64,000 nucleotides of DNA from Dictyostelium discoideum (taxonomy: Eukaryota): contig CM000152.2 of assembly GCA_000004695.1 (NCBI GenBank), positions 1,024,001-1,088,000 on the forward strand, in the 5' to 3' direction. Shown here in pieces: positions 43,660-52,720 of the stretch. Position numbers and translations under genes: made by a program. The first letter of the stretch is position 1, and the number at the start of each line of letters is the position of its first letter. The notes under the pieces were generated by a model. That model searched no databases. It saw only the letters and a program-made list of their open reading frames with translations, and was not told the origin of the DNA.

Positions 43660-43900
43660 ATTAATTAAAAAAATTACAAAAATTAGAAATATCAATAAAA
43701 TTTGAAAAGAAATATATTGGGATAATTAATTTTTTAGGGAAATTTTCCATTTGTTAAATATACCCCTCAAAATTTCTTATTCGACCTTTAATTAATCTTA
43801 AATAATCTGGATTCTCTATAAATTATAACGGCATTATTAATATTCCATGCTCAAAAATTCTTTCTAGTTATTTTTCATATGAGTGGTTAATTATAATAAA
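43660..43900. repeat. Conserved upstream (promoter-region) block U of the small-secreted-protein family, copy 1
   Basis: It shares the motifs ..ggattctctataaattataacggcattat.. and ..tttcatatgagtggttaatt.. with 49790-50010, 51890-52130 and 52490-52720. Confidence 0.5.
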
Positions 43901-44094
43901 AATGAAATCATTCCAAAAAATTTTTTATTATTATAAAATTTTTTATAATTTTTATTTACACCAACTTTTCATTTTTACATAAAATTTATTATCTATAATA
44001 TCAGGTTCTAATCCAAAAGAATACAACATTAAATTTGGTTGAGTCATTTGCTTTTTTCTTGGTCAAGAGTTTACCATTTTTTTTTATTAAAAGT

Positions 44095-44210
44095 AGGAAA
44101 TAATTATGAATTTATTTCTATTTTTTTTTTATTGATAGAAGGAGATAATTATGAATTTTTTTTTTTTTTTATTAATAGAAGGAAATAATTATGAATTTGT
44201 TTATTTAATT
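44095..44210. repeat. 3 tandem copies of an imperfect 37-bp repeat (tagaaggaaataattatgaattt..)
   Basis: Direct reading: ..gtaggaaataattatgaatttatttct.. / ..tagaaggagataattatgaattttttt.. / ..tagaaggaaataattatgaatttgttt.. Confidence 0.7.
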
Positions 44211-44325
44211 AAAAAAACACAACTGAAAAAAAAAAATTTAAAGAAATATTTAACAACCCGATTAACATAATTAGTAAAAATAATAAAATTTTTTTTTTTT
44301 TCACAAGTCAAAAAATTATACCTAT

Positions 44326-44710
44326 TTAGTTTAATTTAATTTAATTTAATTTAATTTAATTTAATTTTTGATTTTAAAATGTTCATAAAGACAAAAGATT
44401 TCTGTGTAAATTTTTAAAATAATATTATTTTTCCAAAAATACATATTCTTTTTTACAATAATATGTTTTTTTTTTTTAAAAGAAAAAAATAAAAATAGCT
44501 TTACTTTTAAAATGAAATACGTATTTTTTAAGATTTTCTGGAAACTTCTAAATTTGAATGAAAAAAAAAAAATAATATTATTTTAAAAAAAAATATCTAT
44601 TTTTAGACAATAATATTACCATTAAAAACCACTCATTTTTTAAAATTAAATGAAAAAAAATTAAATTGAATTAAATTAAATTAAATTAAATTAAATTAAA
44701 TTAAATTAAA
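44326..44710. repeat. Inverted pair of pentanucleotide arrays: (TTTAA/ATTTA)n at 44326-44367 and its reverse complement (AAATT)n at 44655-44710, flanking about 290 bp
   Basis: tttaatttaatttaatttaattt... and ...aaattaaattaaattaaattaaat are exact reverse complements. Confidence 0.7.
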
Positions 44711-44879
44711 TAAAATAATTTAGTAAAATTACACCAAGTCCTAAATTATACAAAATGTAAAAAAAAAAAAAAATTATAAACAGAAAAAAAAAATAAAAAA
44801 TGTAAAAAATAAATAATGTTATTAATTAATAACGTTTTTTTTTATTTTTTTTTATGTTGACTCTCTTATATTGGAAACA

Positions 44880-45300
44880 ATATCTTCCAATGTATGAGAT
44901 ATGTGTTACTTTTCGTATTATTCCAAAAACATTTCAAAATCACTATAGTCAACCATTCATTCACTTTGAGTTGTATTTCCTTGTGAAATAATGGAAAAGA
45001 GATATGATAAACTTGTTATCATATCTCGATACGAATCAGTTGGCTTTTTAAAACATCCTTTATCTAATGTGCTTTATCGTGCAATTGCTGCTGAATCTAC
45101 CTCTATTGATATTGAAACTCCCACTGATTACGAAATCCAAAAAAAAAATACTATTCTGGTAAAAGCAAAGTCATGTGGTCAAATTTCATTGTGAGGTATG
45201 CACTAGATTATACAGATTATTGTTACTACATCCTGAGGGATTCCCAGGTTCCGTTCATGATCAAATATATACTATAAAAGACCAAAATAGAGAGCCATAA
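44880..45300 (+). mobile_element. Degenerate Harbinger/PIF-type (DDE_Tnp_4) transposase remnant, frameshifted and truncated
   Basis: Locally GC-richer island. Frame 0 gives DKLVIISRYESVGFLKHPLSNVLYRAIAAESTSIDIETP..YEIQKKNTILVKAKSCGQISL, and after a +1 shift near 45190 ..VCTRLYRLLLLHPEGFPGSVHDQIYTIKDQN* follows. PGSVHD and I-A-A-x-x-T-x-I-x-I-x-x-P correspond to the GWPGSVHD and IGAIDGTHIxIxxP motifs of Harbinger transposases. Confidence 0.4.
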
Positions 45301-45944
45301 TACTATAATAATGGTCAAATTATTCGTAAACATGATAGCTTTCCAATTATTTTAAATAACCAAATCTCTTACTTTTAATACTTTGTTATTAATTTTATTT
45401 TATTATTATTTTTTTTATTTTTTTTTTTTATTATTATTAAAATAATTATATTATTGGTATTTTTTATTTTTTATTATTTTATTATATATATATCTTCACC
45501 TAATTTTTTTTTTTTTTTTTTTGTTATCCCAGATTTTAATTTTTTATTCATCCTTTTTTATTATATTTTAGTTATTTTATTTAACAACAAACACTGTTCT
45601 TTTTCTTTTATTTCTTTAAGTTTATCTTTGTCGAATTCAATGCCAAAACCATCATTATATGTTTCTTCAAGATCAGCTAACATACAGAGTATTAAGACGA
45701 TTTAGTAAATGATCCAAATTTACTCAGTATGTTGAAATTATTTTAAAATGATTAATTTTTAAAAAAAAGTTTTCCACATACACACAGTTGGAGCTTACAA
45801 AAAAAATAAAAAAAAATAAAAAAATAAAAAAATAAAAATATTTACACCAACTTTTCATTTTTTCATAAAATTTAATAATAAAAAAAAAAAAAAATGAAAA
45901 AAAATAAAGTTTATTTCCAATCTTGGATTGTATATTTGGAAAAA

Positions 45945-45968
45945 AAGGGGTTATTAAAAAATAACCCC
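45945..45968. repeat. Perfect palindrome aggggttatt-aaaaa-aataacccct
   Basis: 10-bp arms read directly; potential hairpin. Confidence 0.8.
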
Positions 45969-46229
45969 TTTGCATTCAATGTTTTTTTAATAACTTCCAT
46001 ATTATAATATTTTTTCCATTTTTTTTTTTAATTAATCAGAGAAATTTTTTTTTTAATTATTTATAATTTATTATTAATTATGGGACACCCAATCCAAAAA
46101 AAAGACATTCTCCTTTTTTTCGCAAAAAAACATCTTTTTTTTCACAGGAATATAATTTTGAATTTAAATTGTTTATAAAAACTAAAATATTGGTAAAATA
46201 TGATGTGGAATTTTACATAATTCACTATA

Positions 46230-50559: not shown

Positions 50560-50910
50560 TATTATTATTATTATTATTATTATTATTATTATTATTATTA
50601 TTATTATTATTATTATTATTATTATTATTATTATTATTATTATTATTATTATTATTATTATTATTATTATTATTATTATAATTATTATTATTTTAATAAT
50701 TAAACTTACCTATATCTTTCAACTATTGCCATAGGGTTTGACCATTAAGTTTTCTGGCAACATCCGCGGGTACTCTGAAAGCATCATCAAGAGCACCTGA
50801 ATCTGAAGATTTTGGAACATTTTTGGTAGTTGAATTCCTAAAAAAAATAAAAAAAAAACAATGAAAAAAAAATAACAAAGTTTAAACACAGGTATTGTGA
50901 AAACCATTCA
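50560..50910 (-). pseudogene. Pseudogene remnant of the small-secreted-protein family (3' end of exon 1, donor and (AAT)n intron only)
   Basis: ..ccagaaaacttaatggtcaaaccctatggcaatagttgaaagatatag|gtaagtttaattatt(att)n.. resembles the end of the S2 member (..cattgcaagaattgaaagaaacag|gtaagtttaa..). An in-frame TAA precedes it, with no signal-peptide exon. Confidence 0.45.
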
Positions 50911-51081
50911 AGTTTGCACACTTTTTGTAATTACAATAATATTTTTTTTTTTTTTTTAATTTTTTTTTTATATTATTACACTATTTTTTTTTTTTTTTTT
51001 TACTAAAAAACCACCATATTGATTAAATAATATTTTTAATTCTTTATCATTGGATGATTTTTTTTTCATGCAAACTTTTTT

Positions 51082-51724
51082 TTAATAAGTAACTGATCTA
51101 ATGCCAATTTTTGGAAAATCTCTACCAATTGAAGTTACACTAAAAAAATAGGAACTATTTATTTAAAAGAATTTTTGTAAGTAATGGTTTTTATTTATTT
51201 TTTTATTATTTTTGTTATTATTTATATTATTAATATGTATATTATTATTATTATTATTATTATTATTATTATTATTATTATTATTATTATTATTATTATT
51301 ATTATTATTATTATTATTATTATTATTATTATTATTATTATTATTATTATTATTATTATTATTATAAAAAATAAACTTACTTTTTTTTTTCAATTCTTGG
51401 AATAGTGATACTATTGTATTCCCCGGATATTTGGAAACCAGTGGTAATAATGCTTGGACCAAGAGATACGGAAACTGATGAGGCACCAGTATCCCTTTTA
51501 TTAAAAAGTCGAATTTCATATTGACCATAATGAGTTCCAGATTTATCCCATTGTGATTTTAGGAAAATTGATACTGATATATCATAGAAATACTTCTCTT
51601 CAACACAAAAGCATATATCCTGTGAGGTAAAACTAACTTCATCAGCACCACAAGGTTCGTCTTTACAACCATATGCAAAAGCTAAAGTGAAGAAAATAAT
51701 AAATAAGACTGATAAGAGTTTCAT
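51082..51724 (-). CDS. Small secreted CBM49-like protein family member S3, 2 exons (51381..51724, 51082..51154), about 139 aa
   Basis: MKLLSVLFIIFFTLAFAYGCKDEPCGADEVSFTSQDICFCVEEKYFYDISVSIFLKSQWDKSGTHYGQYEIRLFNKRDTG...ITIPRIEKK | NSYFFSVTSIGRDFPKIGIRSVTY*. Donor AAA AA|GTAAGT, with an (AAT)n intron. Confidence 0.65.
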
Positions 51725-51889
51725 TTTGTTTTTTTTTTTTTTTTTTTTTAAAAAAAAAAGATATCTTTTTTTTATTATTGTCTAGGAAAAAAGCTAATAA
51801 TTTAATAATTTGTTTTTGATTCGGAAATAAATAGAATAAAAAACTTTCAATTTATAGTCTTTTTTTATTTATTTTTTATTAAGAGAATA

Positions 51890-52130
51890 AATTACAAAAA
51901 TTACAACAATTAAAAAATAAATAACAATTAAAGAATAAAATAGGTTATTAATTTTTATTTTTGTTTCCCACATTTGTTTAAAATACTACCAAATTGATAT
52001 TCCATATTTCGATTTTAAAAAGATTATATTATGTGGAGATTCTCATAAATTATAACGACATTATAAATAATAAACGTTCATTAAATTATTTTTGGTTTTT
52101 TTCATATTAGTGGTTATTTATAATAAAAAA
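51890..52130. repeat. Conserved upstream block U, copy 3
   Basis: ..ggagattctcataaattataacgacattat..tttcatattagtggttattt.. Confidence 0.5.
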
Positions 52131-52369
52131 AAAAAACAAGGATTTTACACAAACCTTTTTTTTTTAAAGAAAAATAATATTGAAATTTTTGTATATGTGG
52201 GCAGTTAAAAAAAAAGCATTTTACCCCACAATTTAAGATAAATGGGGAGATAAAAAATAAAAAAAAAAAAAAAAAAAAAAAAAAAAAAAAAAAACAAATA
52301 TAATAAAATATAAATAATGAATAAAAACCAATATTGGTATTATATGATGTTGGGATTTTTACTTATTTA

Positions 52370-52440
52370 CTACAATGTGAATAAGATCTTGTCATAAACT
52401 AGTTGTTTGAAATGCTTGGATTTGTTTCTGTTAAATTCCA
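52370..52440 (-). pseudogene. Fragment of C-type lysozyme exon 2 (5' end)
   Basis: gtgaataagatcttgtcataaactagttgtttgaaatgcttggatttgtttctgttaaattccatc versus the intact copy gtgaagcaagatcttgccataaaccagttgctgaactgcttggatttgtagctgttggattccatc. Both are followed by a poly-T run. Confidence 0.45.
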
Positions 52441-52489
52441 TCTTTTTTTTTTTTTTTTTTTTTTTTTTTATTTTTTTTTTTTATTGATT

Positions 52490-52720
52490 AAATAAATTAC
52501 AAAAATTAGAAACATCAATAAAAATTAAAGAATATAATAGGTTATTAATTTTTTTTATTTTTGTTTTCCAAGTTTGTTTAATATACTACTCGATACTTCC
52601 TTTTTCAATTTTTAAAATATTATATTATGAGGAGATTGTTAAATAAATCGACATTTTAATCATTACACGTTCTTTAAATTGTTTTTTGTTTTTTTTAATA
52701 TGAGAGGTTAATAATAATAA
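52490..52720. repeat. Conserved upstream block U, copy 4 (orphan: no intact family gene downstream)
   Basis: ..gaggagattgttaaataaatcgacatttt..ttaatatgagaggttaataat.. Confidence 0.45.

What the first reader, a model, noticed from the sequence alone, without database searches (positions are those of the whole stretch)
43660..52720. Conserved upstream block shared by family members, including an orphan copy
A block of about 230 bp lies 200-400 bp 5' of S1, S2 and S3. It contains ..ggagattctcTATAAATTATAACGnCATTAT.. (a TATA-like element) followed by ..TTCATATGAGTGGTTAAT.. A fourth copy (52490-52720) has no intact gene downstream, only a lysozyme fragment. The T subtype uses a different conserved 5' flank (..gttatttaattattaaatatgttaat..). 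This is a candidate shared cis-regulatory module driving co-expression.
Basis: seen in the sequence. Interest (0 to 1): 0.5.

Follow-up and report, generated by a model that had tools for sequence, protein, structure and literature searches.

The report
Duplicated upstream flank of S genes
Four ~240-bp look-alike stretches in this Dictyostelium discoideum gene cluster are real, but they are upstream flanking DNA copied along with a small secreted-protein gene during recent tandem duplications, with no sign of being specially preserved, so the finding is ordinary.

Summary
Four same-orientation copies of a ~210-240 bp block lie at 43660-43900, 49823-50030, 51888-52130 and 52483-52725 (blastn E 1e-26 to 1e-58). 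Three sit 137-432 nt 5' of the ATGs of S1, S2 and S3 (D. discoideum AX4 DDB_G0278553, DDB_G0278559, DDB_G0278561; small secreted CBM49-like proteins). The fourth is an orphan next to a lysozyme fragment.

The block is in the right place for upstream promoter DNA: it sits just distal to a canonical core promoter (sense-strand TATAAAT plus poly-T, TATA at -96 to -132).

Conservation is explained by descent.
- Paralogue divergence of the block (0.18-0.47) matches or exceeds synonymous divergence of the S genes (0.22-0.36).
- Divergence from the nearest sister genome (0.086) does not differ from other non-coding DNA (0.108, p=0.16).
- The orphan evolves as slowly as the gene-linked copies.
- One intact S3-like gene in another genome lacks the block.

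There is no RNA structure, no conserved ORF and no transposon features. The orphan is a relic of rearrangement in a lysozyme/CBM49 tandem array. Regulatory function is plausible but undemonstrated.

The parts
43660..43900 (-). Block copy B1, 192-432 nt 5' of the S1 ATG. It is the most diverged copy: GAGAATCTCC reads GAGAATCC.
49823..50030 (-). Block copy B2, 137-344 nt 5' of the S2 ATG. Its gene-proximal end differs from the other copies.
51888..52130 (-). Block copy B3, 164-406 nt 5' of the S3 ATG.
52483..52725 (-). Orphan block copy B4. It begins about 215 nt 3' of the lysozyme stop codon and has no core promoter or S gene after it.
52365..52495 (-). Lysozyme-gene fragment (part of intron 1 poly-T and the start of exon 2) abutting the orphan block.
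   Evidence: 86% identical to 53404-53534
52940..53754 (-). Intact SLT-domain lysozyme gene (three exons) directly upstream, in gene sense, of the orphan block.
43574..43598 (-). S1 putative core promoter: sense TATAAATA (43591-43598) followed by a 10-nt poly-T tract (43574-43583).
   Evidence: architecture per PMC3371697
49770..49789 (-). S2 putative core promoter: sense TATAAATT (49782-49789) followed by an 8-nt poly-T tract.
51838..51856 (-). S3 putative core promoter: sense TATAAATT (51849-51856) followed by a 6-nt poly-T tract.
42866..43468 (-). S1 gene = DDB_G0278553 (exon 1 43101-43468, exon 2 42866-42944; 148 aa).
49057..49686 (-). S2 gene = DDB_G0278559 (exon 1 49325-49686, exon 2 49057-49129; 144 aa).
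51082..51724 (-). S3 gene = DDB_G0278561 (exon 1 51381-51724, exon 2 51082-51154; 138 aa).

Best explanation
The block is the distal part (about -140 to -430 from the ATG) of the 5' intergenic region of an S-type CBM49-like gene unit. It was copied together with the gene by tandem segmental duplication inside a lysozyme/CBM49 gene array on D. discoideum chromosome 3. The copies still resemble each other because the duplications are recent (synonymous divergence 0.22-0.36), not because selection demonstrably holds them. The rest of the intergenic DNA has been scrambled by homopolymer and microsatellite turnover and by decay of lysozyme copies, so the more complex ~240 bp stands out. The orphan copy remains after a rearrangement (partial duplication or deletion) removed the core promoter and the S gene and joined the block to a lysozyme fragment. 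Shown: homology, fixed orientation and spacing, orthologous copies in sister genomes, neutral-like substitution rates, absence of RNA, ORF and transposon features. Inferred only from position: the block carries, or once carried, transcription-factor sites feeding the adjacent TATA/poly-T core promoter, so the S paralogues would have inherited similar regulation.
For: Homologous units: collinear similarity runs from the S exons through the proximal promoter and the block. Lysozyme fragments recur between units. The orthologous array in L001 has the same four blocks, including the orphan; L005 also has an orphan just 3' of its lysozyme gene. The NJ tree of block copies groups them by orthology (B2/L1_S2; B3/L1_S3/L5_189; B4/L1_orph/L5_orph), i.e. 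descent without homogenisation. Neutral-like rates, paralogues: filtered block divergence is 0.18-0.47, against S-gene pS of 0.22-0.36. Neutral-like rates, AX4 vs L001: blocks 0.077-0.100 (pooled 37/432 = 0.086) against other filtered non-coding DNA at 0.108 (p=0.16), and flanking-gene pS of 0.04-0.12. The orphan does not differ from the gene-linked copies (0.100 vs 0.078, p=0.47). G/C consensus columns are less conserved than A/T columns (74.5% vs 86.9%). A canonical core promoter lies between each gene-linked block (B1-B3) and its ATG (PMC3371697).
Against: Pooled orthologue divergence of the blocks is nominally lower than the non-coding baseline (0.086 vs 0.108), so weak constraint cannot be excluded with about 430 sites. 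A few G/C-containing strings are strikingly persistent: AATCTCC in 10 of 11 close copies, and TTAACCACTCA(T/C)AT recognisable even in D. dimigraforme. The block also accompanied the gene to a non-syntenic locus (L004). These points would fit functional sites embedded in otherwise neutral DNA. No expression or binding data were available.
Confidence: 0.7

Rival explanations
1. The block is a selectively maintained cis-regulatory module (upstream activating region or enhancer) specific to S-type genes. It would bind one or more unidentified factors at motifs such as GAGAATCTCC, TTAACCACTCATATG and TTGGTAGTATATTAAACAAATGTGGAAAAC, and would drive co-expression of S1-S3. The orphan might act as a second, distal copy for S3.
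For: Fixed orientation and spacing: the block ends 95-195 nt from the ATG in 11 gene-linked copies across 6 genomes. It is retained with a transposed unit in L004. Weak but real homologues lie upstream of the positional equivalent gene in D. dimigraforme (E 3e-8) and D. citrinum (E 1e-4). Motif islands persist. Divergence is nominally lower than the baseline.
Against: There is no significant rate reduction (p=0.16). Paralogue divergence is at or above pS. The orphan, with no gene, evolves no faster. B1 in AX4 is on a long branch and has lost the core motif. The intact S3-like gene of L003 lacks the block. G/C positions decay faster than A/T. The S proteins themselves evolve at dN/dS >= 1 and were not found in a life-cycle proteome in which the T protein was detected (files truncated).
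Confidence: 0.25
2. The block is its own transcription unit: a small non-coding RNA or micro-ORF gene transcribed from the + strand using the TATAAATT string.
For: On the + strand, B1 and B2 read TATA-like, then a T-rich run, then CATATGAG, superficially like a Dictyostelium core promoter.
Against: The TATA string is absent from B4 and altered in B2 and in other genomes. No Rfam family matches. RNAalifold predicts zero conserved pairs in 12 copies. The MFE z-score is +1.2 on both strands. The only ORFs are 3-12 codons long and are not conserved (sequence).
Confidence: 0.03
3. The block is a fragment of a mobile element (MITE or other dispersed repeat) that inserted independently near each gene.
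For: Copy number is above one, and an AX4-specific segment with a faint DDE transposase signal lies nearby (44861-45340).
Against: There are no terminal inverted repeats; the only inverted matches are flanking poly-T/poly-A tracts. Every copy has the same orientation and spacing relative to a family gene or lysozyme gene. The profile finds no unlinked copy in about 190 kb of Dictyostelium DNA. Homology continues from the block into the proximal promoter and exons.
Confidence: 0.02

Closest known systems
Paralogous 5' flanks of tandemly duplicated genes (segmental duplication units carrying their promoters)
   Same: Homology is collinear from exons through the core promoter into the block. The repeated unit includes neighbouring lysozyme sequence. 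Flank divergence is about equal to synonymous divergence. Block copies group by orthology across genomes.
   Different: Here the coding parts have diverged faster than the flank at the protein level (33-44% amino-acid identity, dN/dS ~1-2), which makes the flank look unusually conserved. One unit has lost its gene, leaving an orphan.
Canonical Dictyostelium core promoter (sense-strand TATAAA(A/T)(A/T) about 29 bp upstream of the TSS, with poly-T ending about 2 bp before the TSS; Chang et al. 2012, PMC3371697; Kimmel and Firtel 1983 as cited there)
   Same: Each S and T gene has such an arrangement at -84 to -132 from its ATG, immediately gene-proximal to the block.
   Different: The block itself does not contain it.
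Upstream regulatory regions of Dictyostelium developmental genes (short G/C-containing factor sites within a few hundred bp upstream, e.g. the G-box/CAE elements of spore-coat genes; from general knowledge, not tested here)
   Same: Position within about 450 bp of the ATG, and islands of G/C-containing sequence in an AT-rich background.
   Different: No match to any factor site I can name with confidence. No evidence of constraint, binding or activity.

Membership tests
Segmental (tandem) duplication unit flank | Homology is collinear and continuous with the adjacent duplicated gene | tested here: met
   The alignment of the S1/S2/S3 upstream regions shows a conserved proximal promoter plus block. 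L004 9671-10672 aligns to window 52069-51019 across block, promoter and gene.
Segmental (tandem) duplication unit flank | Flank divergence is comparable to neutral (synonymous) divergence of the duplicated genes | tested here: met
   Block 0.18-0.47 against pS 0.22-0.36. Orthologues: 0.086 against non-coding 0.108 and pS 0.04-0.12.
Segmental (tandem) duplication unit flank | Copies group by orthology across genomes (descent rather than independent insertion) | tested here: met
   NJ tree. B1 is the exception, on a long branch.
Selectively constrained cis-regulatory module | Fixed position and orientation relative to the regulated gene | tested here: met
   The block ends 95-195 nt 5' of the ATG in all 11 gene-linked copies, always in the same orientation.
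Selectively constrained cis-regulatory module | Substitution rate is lower than in neighbouring non-functional DNA | tested here: inconclusive
   37/432 against 381/3526, p=0.16. Orphan against gene-linked copies, p=0.47. Power is limited by low divergence.
Selectively constrained cis-regulatory module | Present at every intact family member it is supposed to regulate | tested here: not met
   The L003 S3-like gene (166 aa, intact ORF) has no block in its 658-nt upstream spacer, even with nhmmer --max at E<=10.
Selectively constrained cis-regulatory module | Drives or modulates transcription; bound by a factor | not testable with these tools
   No expression, CAGE, ATAC or ChIP data were accessible. 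Gene IDs occur in only two papers, neither on expression.
Dictyostelium TATA/poly-T core promoter | Sense-strand TATAAA(A/T)(A/T) shortly upstream of a poly-T tract and the TSS | tested here: not met
   The block's TATA-like string is antisense to the S genes, about 330 nt from the ATG, present in 2 of 4 copies and no commoner than chance. The true candidates lie outside the block.
Structured non-coding RNA | Conserved secondary structure, covariation, or an Rfam match | tested here: not met
   Rfam finds nothing. RNAalifold predicts 0 pairs. The MFE z-score is +1.2 on both strands.
MITE / transposon fragment | Terminal inverted repeats and dispersed, gene-independent copies | tested here: not met
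   Only poly-T/poly-A complementarity. No unlinked copies in the window plus six loci. The whole genome was not scanned.

The most novel reading that the evidence does not exclude
The block is a real S-lineage-specific upstream activating module whose short G/C-containing cores (GAGAATCTCC; TTAACCACTCATATG) bind an as yet unknown Dictyostelium transcription factor. The orphan copy would be retained because it serves as a distal second enhancer for S3 or as a downstream element of the lysozyme gene. This would couple expression of fast-evolving secreted CBM49-like proteins to the lysozyme.
Probability: 0.2. Interest if true: 0.35.

Novelty: new member of a known kind. Interest (0 to 1): 0.15.

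Why it matters
It matters little beyond local annotation. The block gives a ready-made set of aligned paralogous and orthologous promoter copies (11+ sequences) for anyone dissecting the regulation of DDB_G0278553, DDB_G0278559 and DDB_G0278561. It also shows a trap in AT-rich genomes. When coding sequences evolve at dN/dS >= 1 and most spacer DNA is low-complexity, an ordinary duplicated flank can look like a conserved element. The more interesting biology is in the neighbours: secreted S proteins evolving at or above the neutral rate, and T paralogues kept nearly identical over their transcribed region only.

Tried and rejected
- Chance AT-rich similarity: rejected by E-values and a matched null.
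- TATA-box reading: rejected.
- Structured RNA: rejected.
- Conserved small ORF: none. On the + strand the CATATGAGTGGTTAA string gives M-S-G-stop. The minus-strand ATGs give 4-12 codon ORFs that differ between copies.
- DUSE / class I RNA idea: a CCCCACAA string at ~52230 lies outside the block, occurs in one unit only and has nothing RNA-like about 60 nt downstream (by eye). Dropped.
- MITE or transposon: rejected.
- 3' element of the lysozyme gene: only B4 and its orthologues lie 3' of an intact lysozyme gene. D. citrinum, D. dimigraforme and L003 have lysozyme genes with no block in that position. Judged unlikely.
- Gene conversion keeping blocks similar: the tree follows orthology, so there is no sign of it for B2-B4. 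It cannot be excluded for the S1 position, where L1_S1 groups with L4_123 rather than with W_B1.
- Constraint tests (orthologue rate, paralogue rate vs pS, orphan as internal control, G/C vs A/T columns): none gave a positive signal.
- Literature and proteome look-ups for S-gene expression: nothing usable.
- The AX4 genome outside this window and the six fetched loci could not be searched with the DNA tools available.
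Full report
**Context.** The window is about 78% A+T with long homopolymer and (ATT)n tracts. The protein encoded at 42866-43468 is 100% identical to D. discoideum AX4 DDB_G0278553. The genes at 49057-49686 and 51082-51724 are DDB_G0278559 and DDB_G0278561. A paper places DDB_G0278559 at about 1.07 Mb on chromosome 3. All family genes are on the minus strand.

- The S genes start at ATGs 43468 (S1), 49686 (S2) and 51724 (S3). The T genes start at 47701 (T1), 54829 (T2) and 56514 (T3).
- Each gene has two exons and encodes a 138-153 aa protein with an N-terminal hydrophobic, signal-peptide-like segment. Similarity to CBM49 is clear for T (E 9e-11) and sub-threshold for S.
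- An intact SLT-domain lysozyme gene lies at 52940-53754. Fragments of it recur at 46212-46599, 46879-47095, 48465-48620 and 52365-52495.
- Truncated S-like pieces lie at 50690-50850 (minus strand) and 55294-55524 (plus strand).

So the region is a decaying tandem array of lysozyme plus CBM49-like gene units.

**The observation.** The four blocks are real.

- blastn with no low-complexity filter gives 73-80% identity over 180-250 nt, E 1e-26 to 1e-58. The only other matches in the 64 kb are short AT-rich hits.
- TTCATATGAGTGGTTAAT occurs in all four copies with <=2 mismatches, against 0.25 expected.
- The "TATA" string occurs in only two of the four with <=3 mismatches.
- Against a null of 300 random AT-rich 240-mers from the same window, block pairs lie well above chance.

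Refined coordinates are B1 43660-43900, B2 49823-50030, B3 51888-52130 and B4 52483-52725. They lie 192-432 nt (B1), 137-344 nt (B2) and 164-406 nt (B3) 5' of the respective ATGs. B4 is followed, in gene sense, by a 45-nt poly-T run and a lysozyme fragment, with no sense-strand TATAAAT and no family exon.

**What lies between block and gene.** All six family genes carry a sense-strand TATAAAT(A/T) at -96 to -132 from the ATG. It is preceded by a poly-A tract and followed within 3-8 nt by a 6-10 nt poly-T tract. This matches the genome-wide Dictyostelium core-promoter architecture: a sense-strand TATAAA(A/T)(A/T) about 29 bp upstream of the TSS, with poly-T ending about 2 bp before it (PMC3371697). 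The block is therefore upstream-promoter DNA, not the core promoter. It reads TATAATAATAACC in B2, GTTAAATAAATCG in B4 and CTGAAATTATAACG in another genome. TATAAAT occurs 122 times in the window against 108.6 +/- 9.5 expected.

**Related genomes.** Protein searches found family members in new assemblies labelled D. discoideum, D. cf. discoideum, D. citrinum and D. dimigraforme. I fetched six loci. Five are syntenic, lying between a dynamin-like or other large neighbouring gene and a biotin/lipoyl 2-oxoacid dehydrogenase (E2-type) gene. Synonymous divergence of the flanking genes from AX4 is 0.04-0.12 for L001, 0.07-0.19 for L005, 0.10-0.18 for L003, and 0.15-0.35 for D. citrinum and D. dimigraforme.

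A profile of eight blocks found the following copies:

- L001 has all four blocks, including the orphan.
- L005 has a gene-linked copy, an orphan just 3' of its lysozyme gene, and a weak third copy.
- L003 has one copy.
- L004, a non-syntenic locus, has one copy split by an (AATTT)n microsatellite. The associated gene there has a stop at codon 2 of the ancestral start.
- D. dimigraforme (E 3e-8) and D. citrinum (E 1e-4) have weak copies upstream of the T-like gene next to the dehydrogenase gene. That gene is the positional equivalent of S1.

Every copy has the same orientation. The 11 gene-linked ones end 95-195 nt before the ATG. The S3-like gene of L003 has an intact ORF but no block in its 658-nt upstream spacer.

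**Is the block constrained?** Five tests were run, and none gave a positive signal.

1. Paralogues. S1-S3 share only 33-44% amino-acid identity, which at first makes a 75-80% identical flank look remarkable. But dN/dS among them is 0.94-2.3 and pS is only 0.22-0.36. With homopolymers masked and gap-adjacent columns removed, block divergence is 0.30 (B2-B3), 0.35 (B1-B3), 0.47 (B1-B2) and 0.18 (B3-B4). That is equal to or above the synonymous values.
2. Orthologues, AX4 vs L001, same filters. B2 is 0.079, B3 0.077, B4 0.100 and pooled 0.086. Other non-coding DNA in the same alignments is 0.108 (Fisher p=0.16). T coding sequence is 0.029 and S coding sequence 0.130.
3. Internal control. The orphan, which has no gene to regulate, does not evolve faster than B2 plus B3 (p=0.47). 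Tree branch lengths agree.
4. Column classes. Columns whose consensus is G or C are less conserved (74.5%) than A/T columns (86.9%). This is what AT-biased neutral decay predicts.
5. Breadth. Proximal promoters, the lysozyme upstream region and the T-gene flanks are detectable by blastn in D. citrinum and D. dimigraforme (63-100% of their length covered). The blocks largely are not (0-32% covered).

The power of tests 2 and 3 is modest (about 430 sites, about 10% divergence), so weak constraint on a few embedded sites is not excluded. AATCTCC survives in 10 of 11 close copies, and TTAACCACTCA(T/C)AT is recognisable in D. dimigraforme. In AX4, however, B1 has GAGAATCC and sits on a long branch, 0.29-0.38 from every other copy.

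**Other readings.**

- Structured RNA: no Rfam hit, zero consensus pairs in a 12-copy alignment, and folding no better than shuffles on either strand.
- Conserved ORF: none.

**History of the orphan.** In gene sense the order is: lysozyme gene, 215-nt spacer, B4, poly-T plus lysozyme intron 1/exon 2 fragment, spacer, B3, core promoter, S3. The same arrangement is present in L001 and L005. The simplest reading is an ancestral lysozyme-block-S unit that duplicated. A later deletion, or a partial duplication, then removed one core promoter, one S gene and the 5' part of the next lysozyme copy. The orphan needs no function to explain its presence.

**Verdict.** The block is paralogous upstream flanking DNA of a recently and repeatedly duplicated gene unit. 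It is plausibly part of the S promoters by position, but it shows no evidence of selective conservation and no TATA function. It is a routine feature of a tandem gene array in an AT-rich genome, and its interest is low.

Noticed in passing
window 42866-43468, 49057-49686, 51082-51724 (S1-S3) vs L001: The S genes evolve at or above the neutral rate. dN/dS is 1.06-1.44 between AX4 and the sister genome and 0.94-2.3 between paralogues. Coding divergence is 0.130 against 0.108 for non-coding DNA (p=0.044). This points to either diversifying selection on secreted proteins or loss of constraint.
   Followed up: partly
window 47153-47701, 54278-54829, 55955-56514 (T1-T3): The three T genes encode identical proteins and differ by only 2-5 synonymous nucleotides of 462. 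Their introns differ by 4-8% and their 5' flanks by 14-20%. This suggests gene conversion or concerted evolution limited to the transcribed region. A T protein (DDB_G0278565) is detected late in development in a proteome data set.
   Followed up: partly
window 44861-45340: This segment of normal complexity has no counterpart in any of the six related loci. It has a faint, sub-threshold DDE_Tnp_4 transposase similarity (E 0.086). It may be an AX4-lineage insertion remnant.
   Followed up: partly
window 50119-50171 / 50206-50258: A 53-nt imperfect inverted repeat (77% complementary, 34-nt loop) lies distal to block B2.
   Followed up: no
window 43660-43900 vs L001 9635-9852: B1 and its positional orthologue are far more different (p about 0.32-0.35) than the other orthologous block pairs (0.08-0.12), and the S1 coding sequence is also unusually diverged (pS 0.17). 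L1_S1 groups with the L004 copy instead. This could reflect non-orthology, conversion or local acceleration.
   Followed up: partly
L004 9975-10003: The S3-like gene at the non-syntenic locus reads ATG TAA at the ancestral start codon position. The annotated 123-aa product starts at an internal ATG and lacks most of the signal peptide, so it is probably a pseudogene.
   Followed up: no
window 50690-50850 (-) and 55294-55524 (+): Two truncated S-like gene fragments: one keeps the 3' end of exon 1 with its splice donor, the other is an inverted exon-1 remnant.
   Followed up: partly
window 48405, 50081, 52195: The string ATGTGGGCAG, with a shared AAAGAAATATTATTTTGGAAATGTGGGCAG context, recurs distal to B2 and B3 and once inverted near a lysozyme fragment. 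It is further residue of the repeated unit.
   Followed up: no
window 21240-21312 (+): A tRNA gene, the only Rfam gathering-threshold hit in the window.
   Followed up: no
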